Assembly: GCA_002415845.1 (NCBI GenBank)
Contig: DIAR01000010.1
Span: 12,920-76,919, forward strand
Direction of reading: 5' to 3'
Length of the DNA: 64,000 nucleotides
Source of the DNA: Candidatus Woesebacteria bacterium UBA5073
GTDB lineage: Bacteria > Patescibacteriota > Microgenomatia > UBA8517
Made by a program: the position numbers and the translations under genes. Below are positions 41,167 to 58,037 of this stretch, piece by piece (position 1 is the stretch's first letter; the number at the start of each line of letters is the position of its first letter). The notes under the pieces were generated by a model. It saw only the letters and a program-made list of their open reading frames with translations, made no database searches and was not told the origin of the DNA.

Positions 41167-41173
41167 AAACTAA

Positions 41174-42778: not shown

Positions 42779-42784
42779 AAATAT

Positions 42785-43342
42785 ATGAATAATTCTAAAA
42801 AGAAAATCTCAAGTTTTGTAATTCTGTTTGCCACGGTTATTTTGGCAGGTGTTGCCATCTTTACGGCTGTAAGACTTTATCAATTAAGACAACAGGCCGT
42901 TGCCCCTAATGTTCCTACCAGTAAACCAAAGGCAGCTGATAATGCCAGCAGTTGTCTTTTAACTTTTACCATTTCCGTTTCCTCGACTTCCCCGTCGCCG
43001 ACGGCAACATCGTCCTCTCAACCGACACCAACGGCTACGGCAGTGGCGACAGTGACCCCCACTCCAACCTCAACCGGTGGAACACCAAACAATTGTGGTG
43101 GCACCTGCGGCTCAAATGCCAACTGCAACTCGGCCCTTATTTGTTATTCCGGTTTTTGCCGAAATCCATCTTGTACTTCAGACACCGATTGTGTCTGCGG
43201 AACAACAGCGCCGACACCCACTAAAACAGCTGCACCAACCGAAGAACCTTCCTTACCAGATGCCGGAGTATCAACACCAACCCTCTTTGGCTTTGGAGCA
43301 GGCATAATTCTTCTGATTGTCTCTCTTGCTCTTGCCCTTTAG
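42785..43342 (+). CDS. Small secreted Thr/Pro-rich protein with an 8-Cys knot-like module and C-terminal LPDAG sorting-signal-like tail
   Basis: 185 aa. N-terminal anchor or signal (FVILFATVILAGVAIFTAV) followed by RLYQLRQQA. A T/P-rich linker. The Cys-rich module is NNCGGTCGSNANCNSALICYSGFCRNPSCTSDTDCVCG. The C-terminus is LPDAGVSTPTLFGFGAGIILLIVSLALAL. Confidence 0.55.
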   Translation: MNNSKKKISSFVILFATVILAGVAIFTAVRLYQLRQQAVAPNVPTSKPKAADNASSCLLTFTISVSSTSPSPTATSSSQPTPTATAVATVTPTPTSTGGTPNNCGGTCGSNANCNSALICYSGFCRNPSCTSDTDCVCGTTAPTPTKTAAPTEEPSLPDAGVSTPTLFGFGAGIILLIVSLALAL

Positions 43343-43367
43343 TCTCTTTTATCGGTATAGTTAAAAC

Positions 43368-44043: not shown

Positions 44044-46497
44044 TTATCTCCAGGAGATTAACCAATAATATGATTTATCCAACCAAAGAGGAATTTGAAG
44101 TCCTGCCCAATGGGGATAAAAATAGAAAAACAACAGAAGGGTAATTCCCAGAACCGGAAGGATCAGTTTTTCATTTTTTCTTAAAACAAAACCGGACGCC
44201 AGACACATAAAAGGAACCGCGGGCAAATAGTGATAGAAAAACATAATCCTGGGCGACATCATCCAGGGAACAAAAAAGATCAGATAAGAAAAGATAACCA
44301 AAGCCAGCTTTTTATTCTTTTCGATAAAAGCATAATAAAAAGACATGATAACGGAAGTTAAACCAAACCAAAAGACGGCCGGATTCCCGAGATTATAGAT
44401 TCTGGCTACATATCCATTAACTTCATCGCTGGTATACAAATAGACCGGCCGAATCAAGAAAGGCCAACTTAAAGCCTGTGAGGTATACGGATGTGTCGCT
44501 TTCAAACCGGTATGGTACCACCACATCTGTTTTTGGACTCCCCAAAAAATATCCAAGCCGTGGCCCGTTAAAAACATGGGCGTATAAGAAGCCAAATAAA
44601 TAAGAAGCGGCACAACAGCAAAAGAAAAAAGGGACAGATCAAATTTTTTCTTTCTGGATAACCAAATCAGAAAAAGAATCGGCAGACAATACAAAGATGA
44701 CCACTTGGAAGCAAGGGCTAAACCAAAGGCAACGGCTGAAAGAAAATTCTTTTTTTGTAAGAAGAGATAAACCGTCAAAAGAATGAAAAACAAAACATAA
44801 CTGTCATTCATCCCTATCCGGCTCATCGTTAAAAACAAACCGTCCATAGAAAAAAAGAATGAGGCAATAAGCGCCAGTATTTCATCTTTGAATAATTTCT
44901 TGGCCAAGAAGTAAACCAGGATTGTGCTTCCGACGCCCAAAAGAGCTCCCGGAATTCGCCAGCCAAAAGCGTTCTCACCAAAGACAAGCATCCCCAACCA
45001 CATCCCCAATTTAGCCAACGGCGGATGCGTCCATTCATAGGCAAAACCTTCCGGTGGTGTGTTCCACCATTCCCAAGCAGCTACATTACCATTAAGCATT
45101 TGTCTGGCGGTAAAAGCATGATAAACCTCATCAAAATACTCGCTCTCTGGTTTATTCAAAAACAAAACTCGGGAAAAAAAAGCAAAGACAACAATTAAAA
45201 CAAAAAAGATTTTGATTAGTTTGGGATTTAATTTAATTTTGGGGAATCCTGCTTTTTCTTTGGGTAGCTTAAAACTTTTATTTTTAATGGAAAGATAAAA
45301 GTTTTTAATTTTCAACAGATAATTGGCCTTTTGTCCCAAAATTACTTCTTTTAAAAGAAGAGAGAAAGCAGCCAAATTAGCGATAATAAAAAGCTTGATA
45401 ATCGGTTCTGAGAAAATCTCCTTAAAATCATTAGTAATCCAAACATAGGAATAGGCCAGATTGGCAACATAAGTTAGTGATAAAACCAGATAAACCAGAA
45501 TCAGGTTGGGTAGGGAAATTGCAGCCACTAAAAGCGGTGCCAAAATTGGCAAAAGGTGTCTTTCGTGCATACGGGTCAAAAACAAAAAGGCCGACAAAAG
45601 AACTAAGGCAACCGGCAAATATTTATCTTCCCTATTCTTGGACTTTAAAAGATAAACGCCAAAAGTTAATGAAACCAAAAAGAGGCCAACGTACGATAAC
45701 GGTATTTGGGTCAGGTCTGATTTCCAGAAACCAAAAAGGCCCCAGAAATTAAAGGCATTAACCGAACCGTACGGATACTGGTTCAAAGTTACGGAAAGTC
45801 TTTCCGCTATAAAAGATAAAAGCGGTTGTCCATCCAGGAATGGAACAAAGCCTAAAGAAAAAATTGCTAAACCAACAACCCCATATAAGACAAGGTTGAC
45901 TATTTTTGTTTTGTTTTTAATTAAAAAATAAATTATGACCGGTAAAATAAATCCTGCCTGTGGTTTAATCAGCGTTCCCAACGATAAGGTAATGGCCGAG
46001 AAAAGCCAGTTCTTTTCCAAAAGATAAACGGCCAAAAGAATAAACAGAGCCGAAAGAGAATCAACCTGACCCCAAAGAGTTGAGTTGGTAATAATCGCCG
46101 GATTAAAAAAATAAAGACTGGCTAAAATTAGACTCCATTTCTCCTCCAGTTTTTTTCTGGCAATTTTAAAAATCAAAAAGCCGGTCAATAAATCCGCCAT
46201 AATCGCCGGCAATTTATAAAGTAGCACTTGGGGAAGAATTGATAGTTGGTTTATCTTTCCTAAAAGAAACAACAAATAGGGATACCCCGGAAGGTAATCC
46301 GACCAGCCCAAATAATATTTAGAAAAACCTTCATCAACCAAAATATTGCTCCAGGCCAAAAAGGTATTGAAGTCAAGTTGTAGCGTTCCGAAAAAGGAAA
46401 GAACAATCCTTAAGGTAAGAGCCGTCAGGATTAAAAACAGAATCTTGCTTTCAAGCAGTTTATTTAACTTCGTAAATTTTAACGCTATTGTTTTCAT
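44044..46497 (-). CDS. Two-module polytopic membrane protein; the C-terminal half is a GT-C glycosyltransferase of the PMT/ArnT (GT39/GT83) type
   Basis: 817 aa with more than 20 predicted helices. The second half carries a PMT-like first-loop motif (SEYFDEVYHAFTARQM ... EWTHPPLAKLG ... RIPGALLGVGSTILVYFLAKKLF ... MNDSY). The N-terminal half is another polytopic domain (NILVDEGFSKYYLGWSDYLPGYPY). Confidence 0.55.
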   Translation of the reverse strand: MKTIALKFTKLNKLLESKILFLILTALTLRIVLSFFGTLQLDFNTFLAWSNILVDEGFSKYYLGWSDYLPGYPYLLFLLGKINQLSILPQVLLYKLPAIMADLLTGFLIFKIARKKLEEKWSLILASLYFFNPAIITNSTLWGQVDSLSALFILLAVYLLEKNWLFSAITLSLGTLIKPQAGFILPVIIYFLIKNKTKIVNLVLYGVVGLAIFSLGFVPFLDGQPLLSFIAERLSVTLNQYPYGSVNAFNFWGLFGFWKSDLTQIPLSYVGLFLVSLTFGVYLLKSKNREDKYLPVALVLLSAFLFLTRMHERHLLPILAPLLVAAISLPNLILVYLVLSLTYVANLAYSYVWITNDFKEIFSEPIIKLFIIANLAAFSLLLKEVILGQKANYLLKIKNFYLSIKNKSFKLPKEKAGFPKIKLNPKLIKIFFVLIVVFAFFSRVLFLNKPESEYFDEVYHAFTARQMLNGNVAAWEWWNTPPEGFAYEWTHPPLAKLGMWLGMLVFGENAFGWRIPGALLGVGSTILVYFLAKKLFKDEILALIASFFFSMDGLFLTMSRIGMNDSYVLFFILLTVYLFLQKKNFLSAVAFGLALASKWSSLYCLPILFLIWLSRKKKFDLSLFSFAVVPLLIYLASYTPMFLTGHGLDIFWGVQKQMWWYHTGLKATHPYTSQALSWPFLIRPVYLYTSDEVNGYVARIYNLGNPAVFWFGLTSVIMSFYYAFIEKNKKLALVIFSYLIFFVPWMMSPRIMFFYHYLPAVPFMCLASGFVLRKNEKLILPVLGITLLLFFYFYPHWAGLQIPLWLDKSYYWLISWR

Positions 46498-48424
46498 AGA
46501 CTTTTTTTATATTTTGGTTGTTGTCAAAAAGAGTTTCGCTGTTCGGATTTTTATCCCTTTCCTCACCACCCAAGTAAATATACCTTGCATTATACTTGGC
46601 AAGAACGGTTTTTGTGTAATTAAAATCATCGGCTTTTTGATACAGGGACTCAATATCTTCAAGCCTGGCAAAAACATTATCCTCACCCGTATTATAACCG
46701 TGTGAATACGGCCAGTTAATATAGGAAAGAACCCTCAGCCTTCCCCCGATTTCCGAAACGGCCGAATGAACGGTCGGGTAAGTTATAAAAACCGATTTCT
46801 GGGGCGTAGCCCTTCTTATAAAAAGACCGGCCGCAAGTTCATCAAGAGAATAGCCCATGTTTTTATTTAAGGTGCTGTTAGTCAGGGTTAAAAAGGAGGA
46901 AAAGGTGGTCACCAAAATAAGAAGGCCGAACAAAATTTCCAAAACCAATTTCTTTCTAAAAATAAGATCCAAAAACCAAAAAGAAACAATCGACATAAAA
47001 ACAACCATGAAATAAAAAAACTTAAACATGTCGCCTTTGTAAATCGTAAAGCGAACGAAATACGGTATAGCGAAAAAAACTAAAGACAACGAAACAAGAA
47101 GGAAGAATTCTTTTTTAATTGGTTTCTTTTGAAAAAATCGGACAATTACCCAAAATAAAGACAAAAGGGTCAGGAAAAAAGGCAAACCGAAATTAGAAGC
47201 AATAAACCTTAAGTGCCAAAAAATGTTTTTCTCTCTTTCCCAAGGACCAAAGGAAAAATTTTCTTTAACCAGACTAAAAAAGGATTGCTGATTAACGCTT
47301 CTGTTCGAAAATAAAAGATAGCAGGAAGCAAAAACAGCCAAAAAGATTAAGGCACTCTTAACAAAAAACTTAAATTTCTTTTTTTGAAAGAAAAAAAGGG
47401 TGGTAATCGTAAAGACAATCAAAGAAACAACAACCGCAAAAAATTGAAACTTAATTAAAAAACCGGCGATCAAACCAGCTAGAAAAATAATTCTAAGATC
47501 CTTCTTCTTATAAGCGAAAATTGATAAAAGTAAAATGATAATTACGGCCGGAAGGCCAATCATCATCGGTCGATTTTGCAAAAAGTAATCAGCCATGTTG
47601 GCCATCTGAAAAAGCTGATCATATTCCATCGAATATTCATGACTGGAAAGAAGCCCAACTATATTTTTTATTAGAGACAATTTGCCAAAGTTCTGCCAAA
47701 AATCGTAAATGAATTTAACAAAAAGATAACTACTGAAAAGAGTTCCAGAAAAGGCCGAGGCCAAAGCAATTATTTTCTTTTTGGTTAACTCATACACCAA
47801 GCCGTAAATTGAAAGAGTAAAAATCAGGGCAAAAAAGGGATTGTCATAAACTAAAATTCTTGGGAAAAAACGGCCATAAAGAGTGGAAATAATGGCCGAA
47901 TGAAAATCGGCAAAGTAGTAATAAGACAGGGAAACACCGCTGTAATAGGGCGCTTGGGGTGGAAAATTGCCCTGGGTAAGACTTTGAATAATTCCCTGAT
48001 GCATGGCCGTGTCCTGCCAATTAACCGAGGCCATAACAATGTAACCTTCATACTCAGTGAAGATGGCGGGATATAAAGCCAGAAAGAACAAGAGAAAGAT
48101 AAAAACGCCCATAAACAAAGCCTCTTTATGATTTTGAAAATATTTTTTAAAAACCCGTCCGATACTTTTGTAAGAACAAACCAGCCAGGGAATAAAAAAG
48201 GCGAAAGAAAGAAGAATTGAATAACGGGAAAAACCAACCAATAAACTAACCAAGTACACCAAATAAGAGGACAGAATCACGCTTAAAAGAAAGATCGATG
48301 GTAGTTTAATCCTTACCGGAAGCTTAGGAAAAAACGTTTCGATTACATAGAAACCCGGAATGAAAAAGGTAAAGATAAAACCCAAGATTAAAAGACTGTG
48401 GTCTATGATATTGCCGGCCATCAT
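46460..48424 (-). CDS. Polytopic membrane protein with C-terminal soluble domain; probable GT-C-fold glycosyltransferase-like (family undetermined)
   Basis: 654 aa. About 13 hydrophobic helices, then a roughly 140-aa hydrophilic C-terminal domain. Overlaps the downstream gene by 38 nt. Confidence 0.35.
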   Translation of the reverse strand: MMAGNIIDHSLLILGFIFTFFIPGFYVIETFFPKLPVRIKLPSIFLLSVILSSYLVYLVSLLVGFSRYSILLSFAFFIPWLVCSYKSIGRVFKKYFQNHKEALFMGVFIFLLFFLALYPAIFTEYEGYIVMASVNWQDTAMHQGIIQSLTQGNFPPQAPYYSGVSLSYYYFADFHSAIISTLYGRFFPRILVYDNPFFALIFTLSIYGLVYELTKKKIIALASAFSGTLFSSYLFVKFIYDFWQNFGKLSLIKNIVGLLSSHEYSMEYDQLFQMANMADYFLQNRPMMIGLPAVIIILLLSIFAYKKKDLRIIFLAGLIAGFLIKFQFFAVVVSLIVFTITTLFFFQKKKFKFFVKSALIFLAVFASCYLLFSNRSVNQQSFFSLVKENFSFGPWEREKNIFWHLRFIASNFGLPFFLTLLSLFWVIVRFFQKKPIKKEFFLLVSLSLVFFAIPYFVRFTIYKGDMFKFFYFMVVFMSIVSFWFLDLIFRKKLVLEILFGLLILVTTFSSFLTLTNSTLNKNMGYSLDELAAGLFIRRATPQKSVFITYPTVHSAVSEIGGRLRVLSYINWPYSHGYNTGEDNVFARLEDIESLYQKADDFNYTKTVLAKYNARYIYLGGEERDKNPNSETLFDNNQNIKKVYENNSVKIYEVK

Positions 48425-48442
48425 ATTATTATATAAAGAATC

Positions 48443-49603
48443 ATGTTAAAAAAATGGGGTTTTTGGTTTCTTTTGTTTTTGGGACTCCTTTTAATTATTT
48501 ATTGGGCTACTTCGCCCGGTAATACACCGTATAACTATTTTGTTAAGTTGAGTGAAGCTTTCCTGAAAGGCCAATACTGGTTAACCGATAACCCGCCCTG
48601 GCTTAACGAATTAATTAGCGGTCCAAACGGTAAATACTTTATTCCATATCCGCCCATGCCGGCGATACTTGCCCTTCCTTTTGTTTTTATTTTCGGTGGG
48701 GAATTCCCCCAGCAAATTCTTGGCCACCTGCTGGGTGTCGGCATTGTTCTTTTCACCGTTAAATCCGCCCTTCTTGTTAAGAAAAATTATAAAATTGCCG
48801 TTTATATTGGTCTTTTAACCGGTCTTGGAACAATTGTTTGGTATTTGGCCTCCAACGGTTCCGTCTGGTATCTGGGACAAATTTCGGCGGCTTTTTTCCT
48901 CACTGTGGCCATCAACGAAACCCTGGATAAAAAAAGGCCTTTTGTTGTAGGCCTTCTTATCGGAGCAGCCTACCTTTCCCGGGTTAATACTTTTGTCTGT
49001 CTACCTTTTTTCTTTTTCCTAATGATTAAAGACAAACGTTTTTTCAAGAAAAGTATTCTGCTTGCCCTGGGATTATTGCCTTTTTTGGGTTTTAATTTTC
49101 TCTATAATTTTCTGCGTTTCGATGTTATTTGGGATAAAGGTTATAGCCTAATCCCCGGTGTTTTATCAGAACCATGGTATCAAAAAGGTCTTGTTTCCCT
49201 TTCTTATATTCCCAGGCACTTAAAAATTCTTTTTCTTTCCTTACCAAAATTCATAAATAAATTTCCTTTTGTTTATCCTTCCTGGGGAGGCCTAGCAATT
49301 TGGATAACGACACCGGCTTTTATTTATGCTTTATGGGCTCCCTGGAAAGAAAAACTGACAAAACTTTCTTGGTTGGCTATCGCCTTAATCTCAATTATCA
49401 TTTTCTCCCACGGAACAACCGGCTTTACTCAATTCGGATATCGCTTTGCGGTTGATTTTTATCCTTTCCTTCTTCTCTTAACCATTAAAGGAATTGCTAA
49501 AACGGGCTTAAAATGGCATCACTGGGTTTTACTCACCTTAAGTATATTGGTTAATTTCTGGGGTGTTCTTTTTATTAATAAATTAGGGTTTGTCAGTTTC
49601 TAG
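48443..49603 (+). CDS. Polytopic membrane protein, possible GT-C/DUF2029-like glycosyltransferase (hypothetical)
   Basis: 386 aa with roughly 9-11 predicted TM helices. No soluble domain. Confidence 0.3.
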   Translation: MLKKWGFWFLLFLGLLLIIYWATSPGNTPYNYFVKLSEAFLKGQYWLTDNPPWLNELISGPNGKYFIPYPPMPAILALPFVFIFGGEFPQQILGHLLGVGIVLFTVKSALLVKKNYKIAVYIGLLTGLGTIVWYLASNGSVWYLGQISAAFFLTVAINETLDKKRPFVVGLLIGAAYLSRVNTFVCLPFFFFLMIKDKRFFKKSILLALGLLPFLGFNFLYNFLRFDVIWDKGYSLIPGVLSEPWYQKGLVSLSYIPRHLKILFLSLPKFINKFPFVYPSWGGLAIWITTPAFIYALWAPWKEKLTKLSWLAIALISIIIFSHGTTGFTQFGYRFAVDFYPFLLLLTIKGIAKTGLKWHHWVLLTLSILVNFWGVLFINKLGFVSF

Positions 49604-50666
49604 TCAGAAGATCGCTTACCCAAGCGTTCACTTTCGTCCAATCTCCGTCTTTGGGAATAAAAACATATTGATTGTCATATTCTGTGGTTGGTTTGGGATT
49701 AACTAAAAAGTCCTCGGATAAAACAACCGATCGGATATGACTACTCGCCTCTAAAAACTTTCGTCCCAAGATAGCCACCGCCGATGAATCAATATCCGTC
49801 TCGACCGAATTTACAAAAACTTTCCAAATACCAAACATTTTTTTAGGCGAAAGAAAAACAGACGGGTTTAACATTTTTGTTTTAATGGCCGAAAGCATTT
49901 TTTGCTGACGGGCTTCCCTGGCTAAATCCGTTCCCTCAACACCTGAAGAGTTCCTCGACCGGACATACTTTAAAGCCGTTGTTCCATCCATATGCATTTT
50001 TCCTTTTTCAAAAGTTATTGTTTCATAACGGCACTTATATTCCTTATCCCCGTCACATAAATCGTTTTCTTTACCATAAATGGGATATTTTTCATCGGTA
50101 AAAGAATTTTCAACCATGACGTCAATTCCTCCGATCACATCGATTGCTTTGGTAAAACCGGAAAAATCAATTACCAGCCCGTAATGAATCGGTTGTCCCA
50201 CAATTTCCCCAACCAGTGATTTAGCTAAATCCATTCCGCCCCATTCTTCTTTTTGTTTTCCCCAAAAATAGGCACTGTTTAACTTGGCCCTAATTTCCGG
50301 TACCCAGATATCTCTTGGTAAAGAAACCATTACGAGGGATGGTTTCTCAATGGAAAGCGAGGCGAAAATAATCGTGTCGGTTAAGTCGGGGGCCGTAAAA
50401 CCAGTTCCGCTTCGTCCCAGAATTAAAATATTGGTTCTCCCGGCAAAAGTTTTAATTTTTGTTTCCGGCGTAAACAAGAAATCGGTGATCAGGTGGCGAT
50501 TATTATATTTACCAAAAAAGAAACCGGCAAAAAGAAGAACGGAAACAAGGGAAACAAAAATGAGAAGAATTAGATTGAGCATCGCCTGTTTTTTTCTTCC
50601 CCCAATAGCCCCAACATCACCCTGCCTTTGATCTTTAGAATTGCTATACTGCATCGATATGACCAT
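49593..50666 (-). CDS. LytR-CpsA-Psr (LCP) family phosphotransferase (cell-wall glycopolymer ligase)
   Basis: 357 aa. N-terminal TM helix, then the LCP core: NILILGRSG...DTIIFASL...SLPRDIWV...KLNSAYFWG...IHYGLVIDFSGF..IDVIGGIDV. The true start may be an internal Met, since the annotated 5' end overlaps the divergent pcrA start. Confidence 0.8.
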   Translation of the reverse strand: MVISMQYSNSKDQRQGDVGAIGGRKKQAMLNLILLIFVSLVSVLLFAGFFFGKYNNRHLITDFLFTPETKIKTFAGRTNILILGRSGTGFTAPDLTDTIIFASLSIEKPSLVMVSLPRDIWVPEIRAKLNSAYFWGKQKEEWGGMDLAKSLVGEIVGQPIHYGLVIDFSGFTKAIDVIGGIDVMVENSFTDEKYPIYGKENDLCDGDKEYKCRYETITFEKGKMHMDGTTALKYVRSRNSSGVEGTDLAREARQQKMLSAIKTKMLNPSVFLSPKKMFGIWKVFVNSVETDIDSSAVAILGRKFLEASSHIRSVVLSEDFLVNPKPTTEYDNQYVFIPKDGDWTKVNAWVSDLLTRN

Positions 50667-52560
50667 TTTATCGCATCAGGAGAGGATTACAAAGCTCCTT
50701 TTAGGCCTCAATAAAGAACAGGAAGAAGCCGTTACAACCAAAGAAAGATTGCTTTTAATTCTGGCAGGGGCCGGCAGCGGCAAAACCAAGGTTCTCACCC
50801 ACCGAATGGCTTATTTTTTAGCCAACGGTTTAAGCCCTGAAAACGTTCTTCTTTTAACTTTCACCAATAAAGCGGCTGAGGAAATGAAAAAAAGAGTGGT
50901 TAACCTGGTTGAAATTGCTCCTTTTTTTGCCGGAACATTTCACTCTTTTTGTGCCAGAATCTTAAGGCTTGATGGTCGAGACATTGGTATTCCCCCCGGC
51001 TTTTTAATTTATGACGAGCAGGATCAAAAAGATGCCGTTAAGGAAATCCTGAAAAATCTAAATTATTCATCCGATTCCTTTAACCCGAAATCAATTCTAA
51101 ATTCAATCTCGGAAATCAAAAATCAAATGCTTTCCCCCACACAGTACGCTGAATTTGCCCAGGGCGACTGGCAGGAAACGGTTCTTAAGGTTTACATTGA
51201 ATACGAAAAGTTCTTAAAAGAAGTCGGGGCCTTGGACTTTGACGACTTGCTCATTAAAACGGTCAAACTTTTTAAAGAAAGTCCCCAAACCTTAAATAAA
51301 TGGCAAAAGCGATTAACCAATATTTTTGTTGATGAATGGCAGGACACCAATAAAATCCAATACACCTTGATTAAACTCTTAATGACCCCAAACACTGACT
51401 TAAGTGTTGTGGGAGACGCTTCCCAATCAATTTATTCCTGGCGCGGAGCCGATTTTAGGAATATCACCAATTTAGTTAAAGACTTTCCAAAAATAAAAAT
51501 CATTAACCTGGAACAAAATTACCGTTCCACCCAAAACATCCTCGATGCCGCCAACGCCGTTATTTCCAAAAATACCGGGCACCCCATCCTTAAACTCTGG
51601 ACCGAAAACGACAAGGGTGAAAAGATAAATATCTACACAGCCAAAAACGGACTGGACGAAGCTGACTTTTTAGTCAATCGAATCGACGAGTTGGTAAAAA
51701 ACAAAATGGCCCTCTCCGATATGGCTGTGTTATTTCGCACCAATGCTCAATCCAGAGTTATTGAAGAAGCCTTTCTGCATAGCGGTATCCCTTATGTTTT
51801 AATCGGGGGTACCCGCTTTTATGACCGTAAGGAAATCAAAGATGTTTTAGCTTACCTTAAACTCTTGGTTAGACCAAAAGACAAAGTTTCCGAAAAAAGA
51901 TTAATCAAACTTGGAAAAAGAAGATTTGATAAATTTCTACTGTTTAAAGACGGGGTGAAAGATCCCGAGAATATGAAGACCTTGGATTTATTGGATTTGA
52001 TTTTGGAAAAAACGGATTATCTCTCGCTTTTTGAAAGAGAGTCGGAAGAAAATTTAGCCCGGTTGGAAAACATCAAGGAACTCCGTTCCGTCGCTACCGA
52101 GTTTTCAGATATCACCGAATTTTTGGAAAACGTAGCTTTAGTTGAAGCCGAACAAAACGCCAAAGGCAGACTTAAAAGAAATCTGGATGCCAATGCCGTT
52201 ACCTTAATGACCCTCCATGCCGCTAAAGGTCTTGAGTTTCCGGTCGTTTTTATTATTGGCTTAGAGGAGGGCTTATTTCCTCACGCCAAAGCTTTAATGG
52301 ACACGGGGCAATTGGAAGAAGAAAGAAGGTTGGCCTATGTCGGTATTACCCGAGCCAAGGATTTGTTGTATCTGTCATACGCCTCTCGAAGGCTTTATTT
52401 TGGCGAAAATGTTTCCAACCCGCCTTCCCGTTTTATAATGGATATACCGGAAAAACTAATAAAAGAAGTCGGAAGCTTTAAGGAGAAAAAAGGAAAAGTT
52501 TCTTCTGAGGATTCCGATTTCTATAGTTTTGACGATATAATCGATAAGTACATCAAATAA
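50641..52560 (+). CDS. pcrA: UvrD/PcrA-family superfamily-1 DNA helicase
   Basis: 639 aa. LNKEQEEAV, Walker A AGAGSGKTKVL, motifs II-VI (DEWQDTN, VGDASQSIYSWRGA, YRST, LMTLHAAKGLEFP, VGITRAK). An alternative start is MTILSHQ at 50659. Confidence 0.9.
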   Translation: MLYCIDMTILSHQERITKLLLGLNKEQEEAVTTKERLLLILAGAGSGKTKVLTHRMAYFLANGLSPENVLLLTFTNKAAEEMKKRVVNLVEIAPFFAGTFHSFCARILRLDGRDIGIPPGFLIYDEQDQKDAVKEILKNLNYSSDSFNPKSILNSISEIKNQMLSPTQYAEFAQGDWQETVLKVYIEYEKFLKEVGALDFDDLLIKTVKLFKESPQTLNKWQKRLTNIFVDEWQDTNKIQYTLIKLLMTPNTDLSVVGDASQSIYSWRGADFRNITNLVKDFPKIKIINLEQNYRSTQNILDAANAVISKNTGHPILKLWTENDKGEKINIYTAKNGLDEADFLVNRIDELVKNKMALSDMAVLFRTNAQSRVIEEAFLHSGIPYVLIGGTRFYDRKEIKDVLAYLKLLVRPKDKVSEKRLIKLGKRRFDKFLLFKDGVKDPENMKTLDLLDLILEKTDYLSLFERESEENLARLENIKELRSVATEFSDITEFLENVALVEAEQNAKGRLKRNLDANAVTLMTLHAAKGLEFPVVFIIGLEEGLFPHAKALMDTGQLEEERRLAYVGITRAKDLLYLSYASRRLYFGENVSNPPSRFIMDIPEKLIKEVGSFKEKKGKVSSEDSDFYSFDDIIDKYIK

Positions 52561-52562
52561 TT

Positions 52563-53525
52563 ATGGAGGAAACAAATAAAGAGGCATTTAACCAAGTAGC
52601 TACCCATCCACTACAGTCCTGGGCTTGGGGCGAATTTCGAAAAGCCTGGGGTAATCAGGTTGTTCGATTCCCCTTCGGTCAAATAACTGTTCACAAACTT
52701 CCTTTCTTACCCTTTTCGATTGCCATGTTTATTAAGGGTCCGAAACCAAACAAAGAAATGTTTTCAGTTTTAAAAGAATATGCCGCCAAAAACAAAATTA
52801 TCTTTATTCGAATGGAACCGAATATTGAAAAGGACGAAAAAATAATCTCTTTCCTAAAACAAAATCGTTGTCAGCCGGGACGAAGGCTTTTTACACCAAC
52901 CACTTTCTTAATTGATTTGGCCAAATCCGAGGAAGAACTTCTGAAAAGTTTCTCTTCCAAAACCCGCTATAACATCAGACTAGCCCAAAAACACGGCGTT
53001 ACTGTTTCCGAAGATAATTCCGAGAAAGCTTTTAAGGCTTATTTAAGATTAACCGAAGAAACAACAACCAGACAAGGTTTTTATGCCCATTCACAAAAAT
53101 ATCATCAGTTAATGTGGAATACTTTGCGGAAGGAAAACATTGCCCACCTTCTCACTGCTTCTTATAAAGGAGAATTTATTACCACCTGGATTCTTTTTGT
53201 CTGGAAAGATCATCTTTATTACCCTTATGGCGCCTCAACCGAAAAGTTTAAAAACGTTATGGCTAATAATTTAATGATGTGGGAAGCCATAAAACTTGGG
53301 AGGAAATTAAACCTTACCACTTTTGATTTGTGGGGCCGGGAAGAGGGCAAGGGCTTCACTAAATTTAAAGAAGGTTACAACCCCAAAGTGTTTGCATTTA
53401 TCGGCACTTGGGATTTAATCACTAGCCCACTTTATTACCCCTACACCATCCTGGAAAAGTTAAGGTGGGTTGTCTTAAAAGCTTTAGCCAAATTAGGTTT
53501 TGCCAAAGCCAAATTTAATGCCTGA
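52563..53525 (+). CDS. FemABX-family aminoacyl-tRNA-dependent peptidyltransferase (peptidoglycan cross-bridge formation)
   Basis: 320 aa. SKTRYNIRLAQKHGV motif, then the WGREEGKGFTKFKEGYNPKV C-terminal motif, similar to the GLYRFKKGFGG motif of Fem proteins. Confidence 0.6.
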   Translation: MEETNKEAFNQVATHPLQSWAWGEFRKAWGNQVVRFPFGQITVHKLPFLPFSIAMFIKGPKPNKEMFSVLKEYAAKNKIIFIRMEPNIEKDEKIISFLKQNRCQPGRRLFTPTTFLIDLAKSEEELLKSFSSKTRYNIRLAQKHGVTVSEDNSEKAFKAYLRLTEETTTRQGFYAHSQKYHQLMWNTLRKENIAHLLTASYKGEFITTWILFVWKDHLYYPYGASTEKFKNVMANNLMMWEAIKLGRKLNLTTFDLWGREEGKGFTKFKEGYNPKVFAFIGTWDLITSPLYYPYTILEKLRWVVLKALAKLGFAKAKFNA

Positions 53526-54315
53526 TATTCGTCAAACCCCGGCCTATGCCCAATATTTAACAAAGATTGGTTGGACAGTTGAAACCAACAAAGATGTTAA
53601 TTACTTCATAAAAAAACTGCCTTTGTTGGGAAGCGTCCTTAAAATTCAAAGACCGGAAAAACTGGATTTTAAATTTATTAAAAGTCTGGGAAAAAAATAT
53701 CACGTTTTTCAAACTATTATCGAACCCCATAAAAAGTTATTTTCGCAACATGGTTTTAAACAAATAAAATCTACTTATTTACCCTCAAAGACTTTAATCC
53801 TTGATTTAACCAAATCGGAAAAGGAAATCTTTAACAATTTCCAAAAAGACGCCAAATCGGCCATTAATAAAAACAAAAAAACAAAAGTTACAGAAATTAA
53901 AAACCTTAAAGCTTTTAGAATTTCTTGGAAGAAGACCGTTACAAATAAAAGATATGTTCCACCTCTTACCCACCTTCAAGCCTTAAAAGAATCTTTTAAG
54001 AAAAAATCATTATTTTTATTGGATTCCGATAATTCTGCCGGGGCCATCTTTTTAATTGGTGATAAAACCGGTTATTACTGGCAAGCCTTCACTAACAAAG
54101 ACGGTAGAAAAAAACAAAAACAATATAAAATCGTTTGGGAAGGAATTGCTTGGGCCAAGAAAAACAAATGCAAAAGGTTTGATTTCGAAGGTATATATGA
54201 CGAAAGGTTTCCTAATAAATCCTGGAAGGGTTTTTCCCACTTCAAAAAAAGTTTTAGTGGAGAAGAAATAAGTTATCCCGGCTGTTTTGTGAAATATAAT
54301 CTATTTAAATTATGA
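53518..54315 (+). CDS. Second FemABX-like peptidyltransferase paralog
   Basis: About 265 aa from MPDIRQ. FQKDAKSAINKNKK corresponds to the K-x-RYNIR region. The C-terminal motif is KGFSHFKKSFSGEEI. Overlaps the upstream Fem gene by 8 nt (ATGCCTGA). Confidence 0.5.
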   Translation: MPDIRQTPAYAQYLTKIGWTVETNKDVNYFIKKLPLLGSVLKIQRPEKLDFKFIKSLGKKYHVFQTIIEPHKKLFSQHGFKQIKSTYLPSKTLILDLTKSEKEIFNNFQKDAKSAINKNKKTKVTEIKNLKAFRISWKKTVTNKRYVPPLTHLQALKESFKKKSLFLLDSDNSAGAIFLIGDKTGYYWQAFTNKDGRKKQKQYKIVWEGIAWAKKNKCKRFDFEGIYDERFPNKSWKGFSHFKKSFSGEEISYPGCFVKYNLFKL

Positions 54316-54635
54316 AGGCCATATCATTAAAACAACCCTGGGCCAATTTGGTTGCTTCTGGTAAAAAAACTATCGAAACCAGAAAATGGTCAACCAATTA
54401 CCGGGGCGATTTGATCATTTGTTCTTCCAAAAAACCTGATATTTATCCCGCCGGTTATGCTCTTTGTATCGTTGAGCTTTATGACGTCAAACCCATGACC
54501 GTTAAAGATGAGAAAAAGGCCTGTATCAAAGTTTACCCTAAAGCCCACAGCTGGTTTTTAAGAAACATCAGATCAATTAAGCCAATCGCACTAGTTAAGG
54601 GTCATCTGGGAATTTATGACTTGAGGTTAAAGTAG
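54312..54635 (+). CDS. ASCH-domain protein
   Basis: 107 aa. MKAISLKQPWANLVASGKKTIETR is typical of the ASCH/PUA-like beta-barrel N-terminus. Confidence 0.55.
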   Translation: MKAISLKQPWANLVASGKKTIETRKWSTNYRGDLIICSSKKPDIYPAGYALCIVELYDVKPMTVKDEKKACIKVYPKAHSWFLRNIRSIKPIALVKGHLGIYDLRLK

Positions 54636-55105
54636 GATAAGATTTTCTCTTTGTTCTCTTCGATTAATTGTTTTTGTTCCGGCCAAAAGAAGGAGGGTAT
54701 ATCATCTAAATCAAACCACTCTAAAATTAAATCTTCTTCACCATCTTGCAGCTTTTGATTTCCTTCCATCTGTTCCGTTGAAAAAAGAAAATAATCTATA
54801 ACTGCCCAAAAACTCTTGTCAAAAGTTAATCGTCCCTTCTGACCTAAATAGGTCAAATATTTTAGTTTGTTTAACCCTGTTTCTTCCTCTATCTCTCTTT
54901 CTGCCGCCTGTTTAACCGACTCGGCATTTTCAATACCACCTTTGGGAATCATGTAATCATGAAATTTTGTATCCCTTATTAAGGCAATTTTAATTTGCTT
55001 ATTTTCCCTTCTTGCCACAATACCCCCCGCAGCCTTTCTCGTTTCAATTCCATCAGGTTTTACAAACCAACTATTATCAATTTTTGTATCAGCCTTCATA
55101 TCCAC
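54614..55105 (-). CDS. NUDIX hydrolase
   Basis: 163 aa. Nudix box GGIENAESVKQAAEREIEEETGL (Gx5Ex7REUxEExGU). Confidence 0.85.
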   Translation of the reverse strand: MDMKADTKIDNSWFVKPDGIETRKAAGGIVARRENKQIKIALIRDTKFHDYMIPKGGIENAESVKQAAEREIEEETGLNKLKYLTYLGQKGRLTFDKSFWAVIDYFLFSTEQMEGNQKLQDGEEDLILEWFDLDDIPSFFWPEQKQLIEENKEKILSYFNLKS

Positions 55106-58037
55106 AGATTAAAGAATACTCACAACTTTTGCAAAGGATGCTTTTGGAACAGGCAAAATCCGAGGTTTCAATTTCTTTTTTGGTTTTGAATATTTCCGTA
55201 ATCGTTTTTTCAAGTTCTTCTTTAGTTCTCACACTTTGAATCTTTTTTTGATTGTCAAAATAATAAAGGGTTAAAACAACATCTTTGGGATCTTTTTCGA
55301 AAGGTTGTCCTTTGATCTTCATTGCCGCCAGCGCATAGAAGTTAAGTTGTAGGTCCTTATCAACATCTTTTTGTGTCGGGACATTAGCACCGGTTTTATA
55401 ATCGATAATTTCGATTCTACCATCAGGTAGGGCGTCAACCCTGTCAATTTTCCCACCGATTTTTAAATATTCTCCATTTAAAGTTAACGGAACAACAAAC
55501 TGCTGTTCCAATAAAAGCGGTAAGTTTTTGGGGTTAAATTCTTTTTTCAAGAAATCGGATAAAAACATCTTCCCTTTTTCCAAAAACTTTTTCTCATGTA
55601 TCTTTCCTTTGTAACCATCCTTAATCCAGTCATCTTTTAAAATTTCGAATAGTAGCTTTTCGGAAGGTTTGGCCCCCTCTTTTACTTTTAAATAAAAATC
55701 CTTCAGGGTTACGTGAATAGTTGAACCAAAACTTAAAGAGGCCGATTGGGGCGTTGGAATTTTATAGAGGTATTTTAATTTATAATGCAAAGGACAATTT
55801 TTAAAAGTTTCAATTTGGGAATAAGACAAATAATCAACATGTAAGGGGGCCTTAGTAATTTTACTTAAAGGTTGTGTTTTATAATCCAAAAAGCTTAATT
55901 GTTTGAGGTTGTCGAGTTTTTGTTCTGATGAAACGGCCTTATCACCTAAAGCTTCAAAAATAAAAGGCGAGAGACGTTTTTCTCTTTTGGCCTCTCCGTA
56001 ATAGTCGGCGGCCGTTAAAAAAAGCCTTTCTTTGGCTCGGGTCATACCAACATAGAAAAGTCGGCGTTCTTCTTCCATATGATAATCCCCAACTGGTAAA
56101 ACTTCTTTAATCAACTCATCCGGTATGGGAATGGTTTCTCTTCGCTCCACTGTTGGGAACCTTTGTCCAACCAGGTTAACCAAAAAAACCACCGGAAATT
56201 CCAATCCCTTGGCGCTGTGAACGGTTAAGATGTTCACGGCGTCAACTTCCGTCCAGTCGTTATCCGAAGCCAACGGTGATTCACCCAGTTCCCGGGATAG
56301 TTCCAAAAAATCAACAACAACAAAGACACTGGCATCTTCATGGTCGACTTCATAGCTTTTCAGCTTGTCAAAAAACTTGGCAACGTTCTTGGCTTTTCTT
56401 TCGGCTTCAACGGAAGCAGGGTTTAAAAGTTTGGGTAAAAGTTTTGTCTCTTCCAGAAAATAGTAAAGAAGTTGTCCGGCCGTTTCTTTTTTCATTAGTC
56501 CCAGGTGTTTATTAATTAAAGCCGTTAGGTATTTAATTTTCTCTTTCCCCTTTTCGGACAGATAAAGTTGGTCGGCTTTCTCACAGGCTTCAAATAAAGA
56601 GAGGTTTGACCTTTTGGCAAAAGCTCCTAAGGTTGCCAAATCACGACCCGGAATATCAAAATATTCAATTGATAATAATCTGAAAAAAGAAACCGAATCT
56701 TCAAAATTGTATAAAACCTTCAAATAAGAAATCAGATCAATGACTTCAGCCTGTTTATACAATCTCCCCGGTCCTAAAAATTGGAAAGGTAAGCCTTTCC
56801 GAGATAAAGCCCTGCCAAAGGGTTCGGCATGATTGTTGGCCCTGACCAAAATCGCAAAATCACGAAAGTCATACTTTTCCTCTCTTATAAGATCGCTAAT
56901 TGTTTTAGCAACTAATTCAGCTTCGTTTTCGACCCGGTCGCAGTGGATAAATTTAACTTCCTCACCGTCTTTGGCCACCAGCGATTTTAATTTCTTGTCG
57001 ATATTTTCAACCACTTCAAGCCGGTCCGGATTATTTTTCTGAATTAAATCATATGAGCGATCCAAAATTTCCTGGGTTGAGCGGTAGTTCTTGGTTAAAA
57101 CGACAATTTTAAGTTTGGGAAAACTTTTCCGAAACTGAACAATATTGGAAACGGCGGCACCGCGGAAACGATAAACGCTTTGATCATCATCGCCGCAAAC
57201 GGTAATGTTTTGGTCTTTACCAACCAATAATTTGGCTAATTCATTTTGAGCAAAGTTAGTATCCTGAAATTCATCAATCAAAATATATTTAAACTGATCA
57301 CGATAAGTTTTTAAAATGTTCTTCCTCTGTCGAAAAAGGTTTAAGGTTTTAATAATCAAATCGCCAAAATCCAAATAACCTTCTTTAATTTTTAATTCGT
57401 CATATGTTTTATAAGCGTTTGAGAGTTCAATTAATTTTTTTAACTCCAACTTATCTTCTTCAGAAAGGTTCTTTTTTGTTTTTTTCTTCTGGATATATTT
57501 GGCGTAATCATCCGGAGTTACATCTTCATCCTGCAGTCGGGAAAAGTGTTGCAACATGCCTTCAATAAATTTATTGGGGTTGCCCAGTGGCCTAAAATAA
57601 TTAAGATTAAAAGAAAATAAATTCTTTCGGATTAAAGCCACAGCTTCGGCTTCGGATAAAAGTTTATAGCGGGGATTTAAACCAATATGCAAGGCTTCTC
57701 TACGCAAGATTCTGTCACAGAAGGAATGGAAAGTGGAAATCCACATTTGGGTATAACCATATGGCATGGCCAGATCAACTCTTTCTTCCATTTCCTTGGC
57801 TGCTTTTTCGGTAAAGGTTAAAGCTAAAATTTCTTCGGGTTTGGCTAACTTGCCGAAAATAAGGTATTTTATTCGCTCGGTAATAACCGTCGTTTTCCCG
57901 GTTCCGGCCCCGGCAATGATTAAGAGCGGCCCGTTTTTGTGTTTAACGGCTTCTAATTGTTCCTTGTTTAATTTCTGTGAGGAAGATACTTTTGCGGCCA
58001 TGTTATTCTTCTGACCTTCCAATTTCTTTTTTAACAT
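55089..58037 (-). CDS. AddA-like helicase-nuclease: UvrD-family SF1 helicase fused to a C-terminal PD-(D/E)xK nuclease with an iron-staple Cys cluster
   Basis: 982 aa. N-terminal LNKEQLEAV and AGAGTGKTTV, then the full UvrD motif set. The C-terminal domain has a Cys upstream (FKNCPLHY), the nuclease motifs GKIDRVD...IIDYKTG, and a terminal C-x5-C-x2-C-x5-C cluster (CSKSILCKSCEYSLIC), as in AddB/Cas4/RecB-family nucleases. Confidence 0.85.
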   Translation of the reverse strand: MLKKKLEGQKNNMAAKVSSSQKLNKEQLEAVKHKNGPLLIIAGAGTGKTTVITERIKYLIFGKLAKPEEILALTFTEKAAKEMEERVDLAMPYGYTQMWISTFHSFCDRILRREALHIGLNPRYKLLSEAEAVALIRKNLFSFNLNYFRPLGNPNKFIEGMLQHFSRLQDEDVTPDDYAKYIQKKKTKKNLSEEDKLELKKLIELSNAYKTYDELKIKEGYLDFGDLIIKTLNLFRQRKNILKTYRDQFKYILIDEFQDTNFAQNELAKLLVGKDQNITVCGDDDQSVYRFRGAAVSNIVQFRKSFPKLKIVVLTKNYRSTQEILDRSYDLIQKNNPDRLEVVENIDKKLKSLVAKDGEEVKFIHCDRVENEAELVAKTISDLIREEKYDFRDFAILVRANNHAEPFGRALSRKGLPFQFLGPGRLYKQAEVIDLISYLKVLYNFEDSVSFFRLLSIEYFDIPGRDLATLGAFAKRSNLSLFEACEKADQLYLSEKGKEKIKYLTALINKHLGLMKKETAGQLLYYFLEETKLLPKLLNPASVEAERKAKNVAKFFDKLKSYEVDHEDASVFVVVDFLELSRELGESPLASDNDWTEVDAVNILTVHSAKGLEFPVVFLVNLVGQRFPTVERRETIPIPDELIKEVLPVGDYHMEEERRLFYVGMTRAKERLFLTAADYYGEAKREKRLSPFIFEALGDKAVSSEQKLDNLKQLSFLDYKTQPLSKITKAPLHVDYLSYSQIETFKNCPLHYKLKYLYKIPTPQSASLSFGSTIHVTLKDFYLKVKEGAKPSEKLLFEILKDDWIKDGYKGKIHEKKFLEKGKMFLSDFLKKEFNPKNLPLLLEQQFVVPLTLNGEYLKIGGKIDRVDALPDGRIEIIDYKTGANVPTQKDVDKDLQLNFYALAAMKIKGQPFEKDPKDVVLTLYYFDNQKKIQSVRTKEELEKTITEIFKTKKEIETSDFACSKSILCKSCEYSLICGYEG

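What the first reader, a model, noticed from the sequence alone, without database searches (positions are those of the whole stretch)
52563..54315. Tandem FemABX-like peptidyltransferases in a reduced genome; possible link to sortase anchoring
Two adjacent, overlapping genes carry the Fem-family motifs K-x-RYNIR-x-A-x-K-x-G and the C-terminal GF-x-x-FK-x-x-F. Fem enzymes build the peptidoglycan interpeptide bridge, which is also the acceptor nucleophile for sortase-anchored proteins. Finding two paralogs, which implies a bridge of more than one residue or two different residues, is notable in a genome that is otherwise minimal. The same region holds a sortase and candidate sorting-signal proteins.
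Basis: partly seen in the sequence, partly recalled or inferred. Interest (0 to 1): 0.5.

Follow-up and report, generated by a model that had tools for sequence, protein, structure and literature searches.

The report
Conserved FemX-like gene pair, Woesebacteria
Two adjacent genes in this small Candidatus Woesebacteria-type (CPR) genome encode real Fem-family enzymes, which most likely add amino acids from charged tRNAs to the cell-wall peptide. The pair is conserved in most related genomes and is already annotated this way in public databases, so it is a sound but fairly ordinary finding.

Summary
Both ORFs are real, intact and translationally coupled. Fem1 is 52563..53525 (320 aa). Fem2 most likely starts at ATG 53518 rather than TTG 53500, giving 265 aa and an ATGCCTGA overlap.

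Both pass Pfam's FemAB cutoff (90 and 31 bits; cutoff 24). Both give confident AlphaFold models (pLDDT ~94) whose best PDB matches are S. aureus FemX/FemA and Weissella FemX. Both keep the catalytic Phe-Lys dyad. Neither has the staphylococcal coiled-coil arm.

Fem2 is a divergent, shorter paralog (23% identity) with a changed acceptor pocket.

The order LCP | PcrA→Fem1→Fem2 recurs in 70 of 80 Microgenomates loci.

The sortase is intact but lies 37 kb away. Three surface proteins 9–13 kb upstream end in an [IL]P[ED][SA]G + TM tail.

Best explanation: sequential aminoacyl-tRNA-dependent building of a peptidoglycan side chain, as in MurM/MurN or BppA1/BppA2. The acceptor, the amino acids and any sortase link are inferred, not shown.

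The exact proteins are already labelled "lipid II:glycine glycyltransferase" or "FemAB family". They are new members of a known kind, and interest is low to moderate.

The parts
52563..53525 (+). Fem1: a 320-aa FemX-like aminoacyl-tRNA-dependent transferase with two GNAT domains and no coiled-coil arm
   Evidence: Pfam FemAB 90.4 bits. The family profile hits S. aureus FemX 6snr at E 1.1e-23. The AF2 model has pLDDT 94.6. Foldseek top hits are 6snr (TMq 0.80) and Weissella FemX (0.77).
52959..52997 (+). Fem1 basic helix KTRYNIRLAQKHG (aa 133-145) at the start of GNAT domain 2.
   Evidence: K133, T134, R135, Y136, N137 and I138 are invariant in 40 orthologues. The segment aligns with RRNRSKVRLALKRG of FemX(Sa) and SKTKSKIKRPFRDG of FemX(Wv). 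A positively charged helix in GNAT domain 2 of FemX(Wv) was proposed to bind the tRNA acceptor stem (PMC12945691); equating it with this motif is my inference.
53352..53378 (+). Fem1 catalytic motif GFTKFKEGY (F268-K269)
   Evidence: It aligns with F373-K374 of FemX(Sa), F382-K383 of FemA and F292-K293 of Sbb17. G264, F265, F268 and K269 are invariant across 79 Fem1 and Fem2 sequences. The Lys is taken to correspond to catalytic Lys305 of FemX(Wv) (PMC12945691) by motif position; the Wv segment available here stops at residue 294.
53518..54315 (+). Fem2: a 265-aa divergent, minimal Fem-fold paralog. The mechanical ORF begins at TTG 53500, but ATG 53518 is the likely start.
53845..53886 (+). 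Fem2 basic helix KDAKSAINKNKKTK, the degenerate counterpart of the Fem1 KTRYNIR helix
   Evidence: BLASTP and hmmalign pair K113 with R135, I116 with I138 and K121 with K143. The family consensus is KKDARxAIxK.
54229..54255 (+). Fem2 catalytic motif GFSHFKKSF (F242-K243)
   Evidence: G238, F239, H241, F242, K243, S245 and F246 are invariant in 40 Fem2 orthologues. The motif aligns with the F-K dyads of FemX(Sa), FemA and Sbb17.
53518..53525 (+). ATGCCTGA junction: the Fem2 start codon overlaps the Fem1 stop codon (translational coupling)
   Evidence: Sequence read directly. In related loci the Fem1-Fem2 gap is mostly -4 to +10 nt.
50641..52560 (+). UvrD/PcrA-type helicase gene directly upstream (stop, 2 nt, then the Fem1 ATG). 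It is a conserved neighbour and probably in the same transcription unit.
   Evidence: Pfam UvrD-helicase 284 bits. It lies upstream of Fem1 in nearly all 80 loci. No terminator-like site lies between the genes on the + strand.
54312..54635 (+). ASCH-domain gene whose ATG overlaps the Fem2 stop (ATGA)
   Evidence: Pfam ASCH 48 bits. Sequence read directly. It is found downstream of Fem2 (not always directly adjacent) in 10 of the 80 loci.
49593..50666 (-). LytR-CpsA-Psr (LCP) family gene, divergent from the pcrA-fem operon. This family is annotated as ligating wall glycopolymers to peptidoglycan.
   Evidence: Pfam LytR_cpsA_psr 103.5 bits. It is conserved upstream in most of the 80 loci.
14698..15360 (-). 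Intact sortase with a TLVTC motif, 37 kb from the Fem pair
   Evidence: Pfam Sortase 82 bits. NCBIfam TIGR01076 57.6 bits against a cutoff of 39.35; no class-specific model is reached. TLVTC at aa 195.
39844..44039 (+). Surface-protein cluster. Three proteins (39844..41166, 42785..43342, 43368..44039) end in [IL]P[ED][SA]G-xxTP plus a hydrophobic tail, which is a candidate sortase signal.
   Evidence: Translations. A pattern scan of all window ORFs finds exactly these three with a hydrophobic tail. None reaches the LPXTG_anchor cutoff.
36137..37855 (-). MurJ lipid II flippase, which shows the organism makes lipid II-based peptidoglycan
   Evidence: Pfam MurJ 240 bits. A YceG/MltG gene at 13066..14064 scores 263 bits.

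Best explanation
Fem1 and Fem2 are two cytoplasmic, aminoacyl-tRNA-dependent aminoacyl transferases of the Fem (FemABX) family, made from one translationally coupled operon. Fem1 resembles FemX and most likely adds the first amino acid to the side-chain amino group at position 3 of the peptidoglycan stem peptide, on lipid II or on UDP-MurNAc-pentapeptide. Fem2 has the same catalytic Phe-Lys but a different acceptor pocket, and most likely adds the next residue or residues. Together they would give a branched precursor and indirectly cross-linked peptidoglycan, as with MurM/MurN, BppA1/BppA2 or FemX/FemA/FemB.

Shown: family membership, the Fem fold, conservation of the catalytic dyad, and conservation of the gene pair. 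Inferred: peptidoglycan as the acceptor, the order of action, which amino acids are used, and that the free end of the branch is the nucleophile used by the genome's sortase.
For: - Pfam FemAB above cutoff for both proteins.
- The Fem1 family profile hits FemX(Sa) at E 1.1e-23, FemA at 3.7e-8 and FemX(Wv) at 5.1e-8.
- Both AF2 models have pLDDT ~94.
- F-K is invariant in 79 sequences and aligns with the F-K of FemX(Sa), FemA and Sbb17. Lys305 is the catalytic residue of FemX(Wv) (PMC12945691).
- Fem1 keeps Tyr at the positions of FemX(Wv) Y215, Y254 and Y256, which are peptidoglycan-precursor-binding residues listed in PMC8280954.
- The pair is conserved and tightly spaced in 70 of 80 Microgenomates loci.
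- Each family has its own invariant core, which indicates purifying selection on both.
- The genome encodes MurJ, MltG/YceG, an LCP ligase next to the operon, and a sortase.
- In a rough NJ tree, Fem1 groups with staphylococcal FemX/FemA while Fem2 forms a separate clade.
Against: - No biochemical or muropeptide data exist for any CPR bacterium in the searched literature.
- Neither protein reaches any NCBIfam equivalog cutoff: FemX(Wv) model 39 bits against 500, and PEP-CTERM FemAB model 54 bits against 260.
- Fem1 has an invariant His (H176) where FemX(Wv) and FemX(Sa) have Arg (R211/R208).
- Fem2 has Gln (Q189) at the Y256(Wv) position.
- MurE (Lys or DAP type) could not be recovered for this genome.
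- Nine related loci have Fem1 but no Fem2 within 6 kb.
Confidence: 0.62

Rival explanations
1. One or both enzymes, most plausibly Fem2, are aminoacyl-tRNA-dependent transferases that act on a non-peptidoglycan acceptor. Candidates are a lipid-linked wall glycopolymer, a membrane lipid or a small molecule, as seen with the PEP-CTERM-associated FemAB proteins or the natural-product Fem-like enzymes VlmA, PacB, DhpH, Orf11 and Sbb17.
For: - Fem2 barely passes Pfam FemAB (31 bits) and only over its C-terminal half.
- It matches Sbb17 about as well as FemX.
- Its acceptor-pocket residues differ from those of FemX (Q189 instead of Tyr).
- The best NCBIfam hit for Fem1 is the PEP-CTERM FemAB model.
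- The neighbourhood is rich in glycopolymer genes: LCP, PMT-type GT-C, DUF2298 and GT2 in the window, and UbiA and GT4 just past the window's right end on the same contig.
- Natural-product Fem-like enzymes share the same fold and the same Lys (PMC12945691).
Against: - CPR genomes of about 0.8 Mb have few or no secondary-metabolite pathways, and no biosynthetic cluster surrounds the pair.
- The NCBIfam PEP-CTERM hit is far below its cutoff (54 against 260).
- Fem1 keeps three Tyr residues of the FemX(Wv) precursor pocket.
- Tandem Fem paralogs acting in turn on peptidoglycan are the established pattern (femAB, murMN, bppA1/A2).
Confidence: 0.2
2. Fem2 is not an independent enzyme. It would be a structural or regulatory partner that forms a heterodimer with Fem1 and tunes its specificity or localisation.
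For: - Tight translational coupling (ATGCCTGA) favours equimolar co-synthesis.
- Fem2 is truncated: the predicted C-terminal helix seen in Fem1 (H291-310) is absent from the Fem2 model, and part of the basic helix motif is degenerate.
- Fem2 is dispensable in nine related loci.
Against: - The catalytic G-F-x-H-F-K-x-S-F motif is invariant in 40 Fem2 orthologues.
- The whole two-GNAT fold is predicted with confidence.
- A basic helix is retained.
- Pseudoenzymes usually lose such residues.
Confidence: 0.1
3. The two are redundant isozymes doing the same first-residue addition with different amino-acid or tRNA specificity, giving alternative single-residue branches rather than a longer bridge.
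For: Both have the full catalytic apparatus. Fem enzymes are known to differ in aa-tRNA specificity (PMC2655667 abstract).
Against: Only 23% identity and different acceptor-pocket residues. The two families have stayed separate across Microgenomates, which suggests different acceptors rather than only different donors.
Confidence: 0.08

Closest known systems
S. aureus FemX (FmhB; lipid II:glycine glycyltransferase; PDB 6snr)
   Same: It is the best sequence and structure match for both proteins. It shares the two-GNAT fold, the basic helix, the Tyr-Tyr strand and the G-x-x-x-F-K catalytic motif.
   Different: Fem1 and Fem2 lack the ~60-residue coiled-coil arm (6snr residues 235-297, PMC8280954); the alignment jumps from about 233 to 288/308. 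Identity is only 15-22%. Fem1 has His where FemX has R208. Donor and acceptor are untested.
Weissella viridescens FemX (UDP-MurNAc-pentapeptide:L-Ala transferase; PDB 1ne9/4ii9)
   Different: The NCBIfam equivalog model scores only 39 and 15 bits against a cutoff of 500. R211 is replaced by His in Fem1. Fem2 lacks the Y256 equivalent. Whether the acceptor is soluble or lipid-linked is unknown.
Tandem Fem paralog operons: S. aureus femAB, S. pneumoniae murMN, E. faecalis bppA1/bppA2
   Same: Adjacent, co-transcribed Fem paralogs that act one after the other to extend the peptidoglycan side chain (general knowledge; FemXAB roles in PMC6428869).
   Different: The Firmicutes paralogs are ~400-aa proteins with coiled coils and are closer to each other. 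Here the second paralog is a 265-aa minimal form that falls outside the Fem1+FemX/FemA group in a rough tree. The host is a CPR bacterium.
Fem-like aa-tRNA-dependent peptide synthases of natural-product pathways (Sbb17/Sba18, PDB 9wqw-9wqy; Orf11, PacB, VlmA, DhpH)
   Same: Same double-GNAT fold, similar size (~290-310 aa), the same F-K motif and the same mechanism (PMC12945691).
   Different: Those enzymes sit in biosynthetic gene clusters and acylate small molecules. No such cluster is present here, and Fem1 scores far better against FemX (87 bits) than against Sbb17 (21 bits).

Membership tests
Fem (FemABX) aminoacyl-tRNA-dependent transferase family (Pfam PF02388) | Significant match to the family profile above the curated cutoff | tested here: met
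   Fem1 scores 90.4 bits and Fem2 31.4 bits against a cutoff of 24. Fem2 is matched only over aa 180-266 of the 271-aa ORF.
Fem (FemABX) aminoacyl-tRNA-dependent transferase family (Pfam PF02388) | Two tandem GNAT-like domains forming the Fem fold | tested here: met
Fem (FemABX) aminoacyl-tRNA-dependent transferase family (Pfam PF02388) | Catalytic Lys preceded by Phe (Lys305 in FemX(Wv)) in the C-terminal G-x-x-x-F-K motif | tested here: met
   Fem1 has F268-K269 and Fem2 has F242-K243. Both are invariant across 79 sequences and align with the F-K of FemX(Sa), FemA and Sbb17. The role of the Lys is from PMC12945691.
Fem (FemABX) aminoacyl-tRNA-dependent transferase family (Pfam PF02388) | Positively charged helix in GNAT domain 2, proposed to bind the tRNA acceptor stem | tested here: met
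   Fem1 has KTRYNIRLAQKHG and Fem2 has KDAKSAINKNKKTK (family consensus KKDARxAIxK), aligned with the basic helices of FemX(Sa), FemX(Wv) and Sbb17. Actual tRNA binding was not tested.
Fem (FemABX) aminoacyl-tRNA-dependent transferase family (Pfam PF02388) | Uses aminoacyl-tRNA as donor | not testable with these tools
   This needs an enzyme assay. It is inferred from the fold and the catalytic residues.
Peptidoglycan-branching Fem enzymes (FemX/MurM/BppA1 type) | Acceptor is the position-3 side-chain amine of lipid II or UDP-MurNAc-pentapeptide, with the precursor-binding residues of FemX(Wv) (K36, N38, W39, Y103, T209, R211, Y215, Y256) | tested here: inconclusive
   In Fem1, Y180 pairs with Y215 and Y222 with Y256, and Y220 with Y254, but H176 replaces R211. 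Fem2 has Q189 at Y256. The N-terminal residues could not be mapped because no full FemX(Wv) sequence was available. The residue list is from PMC8280954.
Peptidoglycan-branching Fem enzymes (FemX/MurM/BppA1 type) | The organism makes peptidoglycan with a Lys- or LL-DAP-type stem and indirect cross-links | not tested
   MurJ, YceG/MltG and LCP are present. MurE was not found in the window or on its flanks. No CPR muropeptide data were found.
NCBIfam equivalogs: FemX(Wv) NF047883 and PEP-CTERM FemAB TIGR03019 | Score at or above the curated equivalog cutoff | tested here: not met
   NF047883 scores 39.2 and 15.4 bits against a cutoff of 500. TIGR03019 scores 53.7 bits against a cutoff of 260. Neither protein is an equivalog of either.
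Staphylococcal-type FemX/FemA/FemB | Antiparallel coiled-coil arm inserted in domain 1B (6snr residues 235-297) | tested here: not met
   Alignments skip this segment. The predicted secondary structure shows no long helical hairpin.

The most novel reading that the evidence does not exclude
The short Fem2 clade (~265-300 aa; 307 clusters at 50% identity with E<=1e-30) may be a distinct minimal Fem-fold enzyme, seen here only in Patescibacteria records, with its own acceptor. For example, it could aminoacylate a lipid-linked wall polymer, or build a dedicated nucleophile for the non-canonical [IL]P[ED][SA]G sortase signal. That would make the CPR envelope chemically different from known Gram-positive walls. 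One Fem2-clade protein fused to a VTT/DedA membrane domain hints at work on a lipid-linked substrate at the membrane.
Probability: 0.15. Interest if true: 0.55.

Novelty: new member of a known kind. Interest (0 to 1): 0.3.

Why it matters
CPR (Patescibacteria) bacteria lack most biosynthetic pathways but keep peptidoglycan synthesis. A Fem gene pair present in most examined Microgenomates loci predicts that these uncultivated, ultra-small cells make branched, indirectly cross-linked peptidoglycan of the Gram-positive type. That would affect their antibiotic susceptibility, how surface proteins are anchored by sortase, and how they attach to hosts.

The prediction can be tested directly with muropeptide analysis of enrichments or with recombinant enzymes. 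However, it follows from standard annotation, and it does not reveal a new mechanism.

Tried and rejected
1. Split pseudogene: rejected. Each ORF covers a complete two-domain Fem fold and matches full-length orthologues.
2. TTG 53500 as the Fem2 start: rejected in favour of ATG 53518.
3. Sortase adjacency: rejected. The sortase is 37 kb away.
4. Recovering MurE or the mur operon by walking off both window ends: only ribosomal genes on one side and a GT4/UbiA/GroEL region on the other.
5. Classifying the C-terminal tails with NCBIfam anchor models: no hit above cutoff.
6. NCBIfam equivalog assignment: none reached.
7. AFDB50 fold search for taxonomic spread: the library was unavailable.
8. Cluster look-up of distant Fem2-clade members for taxonomy: almost no names returned, apart from one "Patescibacteria group" record.
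9. Promoter and terminator scan: nothing above chance, and no terminator within the operon.
10. Residue-level mapping of FemX(Wv) K36/N38/W39/Y103 and K305: not possible, because only partial reference sequences could be recovered from HMMER printouts.
11. Rfam and tRNA scans of the window: nothing found, so no dedicated tRNA lies near the pair.
Full report
**What is there.** The window has the gene content of a CPR (Patescibacteria) genome. The closest homologues of both focal proteins that carry an organism name come from Candidatus Woesebacteria or other Microgenomates MAGs. ORF listing shows two same-strand ORFs at 52563..53525 (320 aa, Fem1) and 53500..54315. The junction reads ...AAATTTAATGCCTGATATT.... 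An in-frame ATG at 53518 overlaps the Fem1 TGA stop as ATGCCTGA. The identical database protein P0121 is 265 aa, the length given by that ATG (query MPDIRQ...; 100% identity and coverage). I therefore take Fem2 as 53518..54315. Upstream, a UvrD/PcrA helicase gene ends 2 nt before the Fem1 ATG. Downstream, an ASCH-domain gene starts with an ATGA overlap on the Fem2 stop. No terminator-like site separates these four genes on the + strand, and promoter-like matches are not above chance. Both Fem ORFs lack internal stops.

**Checking the observation.**
- Pfam places both proteins in FemAB (PF02388) above the gathering cutoff of 24 bits. Fem1 scores 90.4 bits (E 1.5e-25). Fem2 scores 31.4 bits (E 1.2e-7), matched only over its C-terminal half. 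The related Acetyltransf_6 domain is second in both.
- The motif claims are only partly right. K-x-RYNIR-x-A-x-K-x-G is present only in Fem1 (KTRYNIRLAQKHG, aa 133-145). Fem2 has KDAKSAINKNKKTK at the aligned place. GF-x-x-FK is in both, but the trailing F is a Y in Fem1.
- The two proteins share 23% identity over 250 residues (E 3e-8). Their family profiles align at 98.2% probability, E 3.8e-14.

**Structure and catalytic residues.**
- AlphaFold2 models built on a 79-sequence alignment are confident, with pLDDT 94.6 and 94.1.
- Foldseek against the PDB ranks S. aureus FemX (6snr, TMq 0.80 and 0.79) first. Next come Weissella FemX (0.77 and 0.73), FemA, the newly solved Fem-like aa-tRNA-dependent peptide synthases Sbb17/Sba18, and then the MprF aminoacyl-phosphatidylglycerol synthase domains.
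- All of these top matches (Fem transferases, Sbb17/Sba18 and MprF) use aminoacyl-tRNA as donor, so that part of the mechanism is well supported.
- Neither protein has the coiled-coil arm of the staphylococcal enzymes (6snr residues 235-297, PMC8280954). The alignments skip it and no helical hairpin is predicted. Both therefore have the compact architecture of Weissella FemX.
- The literature gives Lys305 of FemX(Wv) as the catalytic residue, with an equivalent Phe-Lys in DhpH (PMC12945691). By motif position, the corresponding F-K dyad is Fem1 F268-K269 and Fem2 F242-K243. It aligns with F373-K374 of FemX(Sa), F382-K383 of FemA and F292-K293 of Sbb17, and it is invariant across 79 Fem1 and Fem2 sequences.
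A positively charged helix in that domain of FemX(Wv) was proposed to bind the tRNA acceptor stem, and I infer it is the same one. Fem2 keeps a basic helix there with a different sequence.
- Some precursor-binding residues listed for FemX(Wv) in PMC8280954 could be mapped. Fem1 keeps Tyr at Y215, Y254 and Y256 (Y180, Y220, Y222), but has an invariant His (H176) where FemX(Wv) and FemX(Sa) have Arg. Fem2 keeps only the Y254 equivalent and has Gln at Y256. Fem2 thus has a different acceptor pocket, as expected for an enzyme acting on a different, possibly already branched, substrate.

**Conservation.**
- Fem1 has 5192 homologues and Fem2 has 1262 in the word-indexed search. The top hits are 60-87% identical, and those that carry a name are called "FemAB family protein", "Methicillin resistance protein", [quoted passage not shown] or "lipid II:glycine glycyltransferase".
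- An exhaustive profile search finds 307 clusters at 50% identity with E<=1e-30 for the Fem2 profile, mostly 265-300 aa. The short form is therefore a real, sizeable subfamily.
- I examined 80 loci from species-representative genomes. Most are Woesebacteria; Blackburnbacteria, Gottesmanbacteria, Shapirobacteria and Levybacteria also appear, and many records are mislabelled "uncultured Gammaproteobacteria". HMM scans find Fem1 followed by Fem2 on the same strand in 70 of them, mostly -4 to +10 nt apart. One exception ends at a contig edge, and nine have no Fem2 within 6 kb.
- The wider block LCP(-) | PcrA→Fem1→Fem2 ... AddA-like helicase-nuclease(-) is also conserved.
- Each family has its own set of invariant residues, which indicates purifying selection on both.
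- I built a rough bootstrapped NJ tree on 77 shared C-terminal columns, using partial reference sequences. It groups Fem1 with staphylococcal FemX/FemA and places Fem2 as a separate clade. This suggests an old split rather than a recent duplication, but the data are thin.

**Context and the sortase idea.**
- The window encodes MurJ, YceG/MltG, an LCP ligase divergent from the operon, and several GT-C/PMT-type glycosyltransferases. The organism therefore makes lipid II-based peptidoglycan with attached glycopolymers.
- A sortase exists (Pfam 82 bits; NCBIfam sortase_fam above cutoff; TLVTC motif), but at 14698..15360, 37 kb from the Fem genes.
- Three surface proteins at 39844..44039 end in [IL]P[ED][SA]G-xxTP followed by a hydrophobic tail. 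A scan of all window ORFs finds only these three. No curated anchor model recognises them.
- It is established for Gram-positives that sortase attaches proteins to the free amine of the peptidoglycan side chain, so the link is reasonable. Nothing in the sequence tests it.

**Mechanism and rivals.**
- The best-supported reading (0.62) is sequential, tRNA-dependent construction of a peptidoglycan side chain: Fem1 as initiator and Fem2 as extender, analogous to MurM/MurN, BppA1/BppA2 or FemX/FemA/FemB.
- The main rival (0.2) is that Fem2, or both proteins, acts on a non-peptidoglycan acceptor. Fem2 matches Sbb17 almost as well as it matches FemX. No NCBIfam equivalog cutoff is reached. The neighbourhood is rich in glycopolymer genes.
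- Less likely rivals are a non-catalytic partner role for Fem2 (0.1), which the invariant catalytic motif argues against, and redundant isozymes (0.08).
- One Fem2-clade protein is fused to a VTT/DedA-type membrane domain. This weakly suggests action at the membrane on a lipid-linked substrate.

**Novelty.** The exact proteins are already in public databases with Fem-type names. femX has been listed among Patescibacteria peptidoglycan genes (PMC12992704), and a sortase has been noted in a Microgenomates genome (PMC7143001). I found no study of the Fem pair, of CPR cross-bridge chemistry, or of CPR muropeptides in the searchable library. This is a new, uncharacterised member (or pair of members) of a known enzyme family. 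Fem2 is a divergent minimal subfamily. Interest is low to moderate (0.3).

Noticed in passing
window 39844..41166, 42785..43342, 43368..44039 (+): Three secreted or surface proteins share a C-terminal [IL]P[ED][SA]G-[SV][LS]TP motif followed by a ~20-aa hydrophobic tail. Only the first has a basic end (KKAEY). No curated LPXTG or anchor model recognises them. This could be a non-canonical CPR sortase signal.
   Followed up: partly
window 14698..15360 (-): An intact sortase (TLVTC) passes the general sortase model but reaches none of the class A-F cutoffs; class C and class E score best. The adjacent 734-aa protein (15364..17568) has only a weak Baseplate_J hit and no sorting tail.
   Followed up: partly
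P0271 (492 aa, JGI metagenome; not in window): A Fem2-clade domain (aa 1-270) is fused to a VTT/DedA-type membrane domain (PF09335, aa 336-452). Another protein, P0363 (508 aa), fuses a Fem2-like domain to a SAM-methyltransferase/spermine-synthase-like domain.
   Followed up: partly
loci L001-L080: Many GTDB representative MAGs that carry this Woesebacteria-type locus are titled "uncultured Gammaproteobacteria bacterium", and a few "Alphaproteobacteria" or "Anaerolineaceae". These record titles look mislabelled.
   Followed up: no
window 49593..58037 and loci L001-L080: The block LCP(-) | PcrA→Fem1→Fem2 ... AddA-like UvrD/PDDEXK helicase-nuclease(-) is conserved across Microgenomates. Two DNA-repair helicases flank cell-wall genes, and PcrA ends only 2 nt before Fem1. 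The reason for this linkage is unknown.
   Followed up: partly
L025, L030, L036, L038, L043, L045, L049, L066, L080: Nine related genomes have Fem1 but no Fem2 within 6 kb. In most of them the Fem1 ORF is longer (about 346-368 aa against about 310-330). Similarly long Fem1 ORFs also occur in some loci that do have Fem2.
   Followed up: no
window 41174..42778 (+): A 534-aa Cys-rich protein with two near-identical repeats (…CCEGQGTCQTTPYGKVCA.PTCTAGQTKCQAEGSS…) sits between the sorting-signal proteins. It has no family hit.
   Followed up: no
window 17584..19341 (-): The alanyl-tRNA synthetase is only 585 aa and ends right after the tRNA_SAD domain, so it is shorter than typical bacterial AlaRS. 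This may matter if Ala-tRNA is a Fem donor.
   Followed up: no
window 44044..49603: Three large polytopic membrane proteins sit just upstream of the LCP gene: a PMT/GT-C mannosyltransferase-like protein (817 aa), a DUF2298 protein (654 aa) and an LA_3751-like putative glycosyltransferase (386 aa). Together they suggest a wall-glycopolymer or protein-glycosylation cluster.
   Followed up: no
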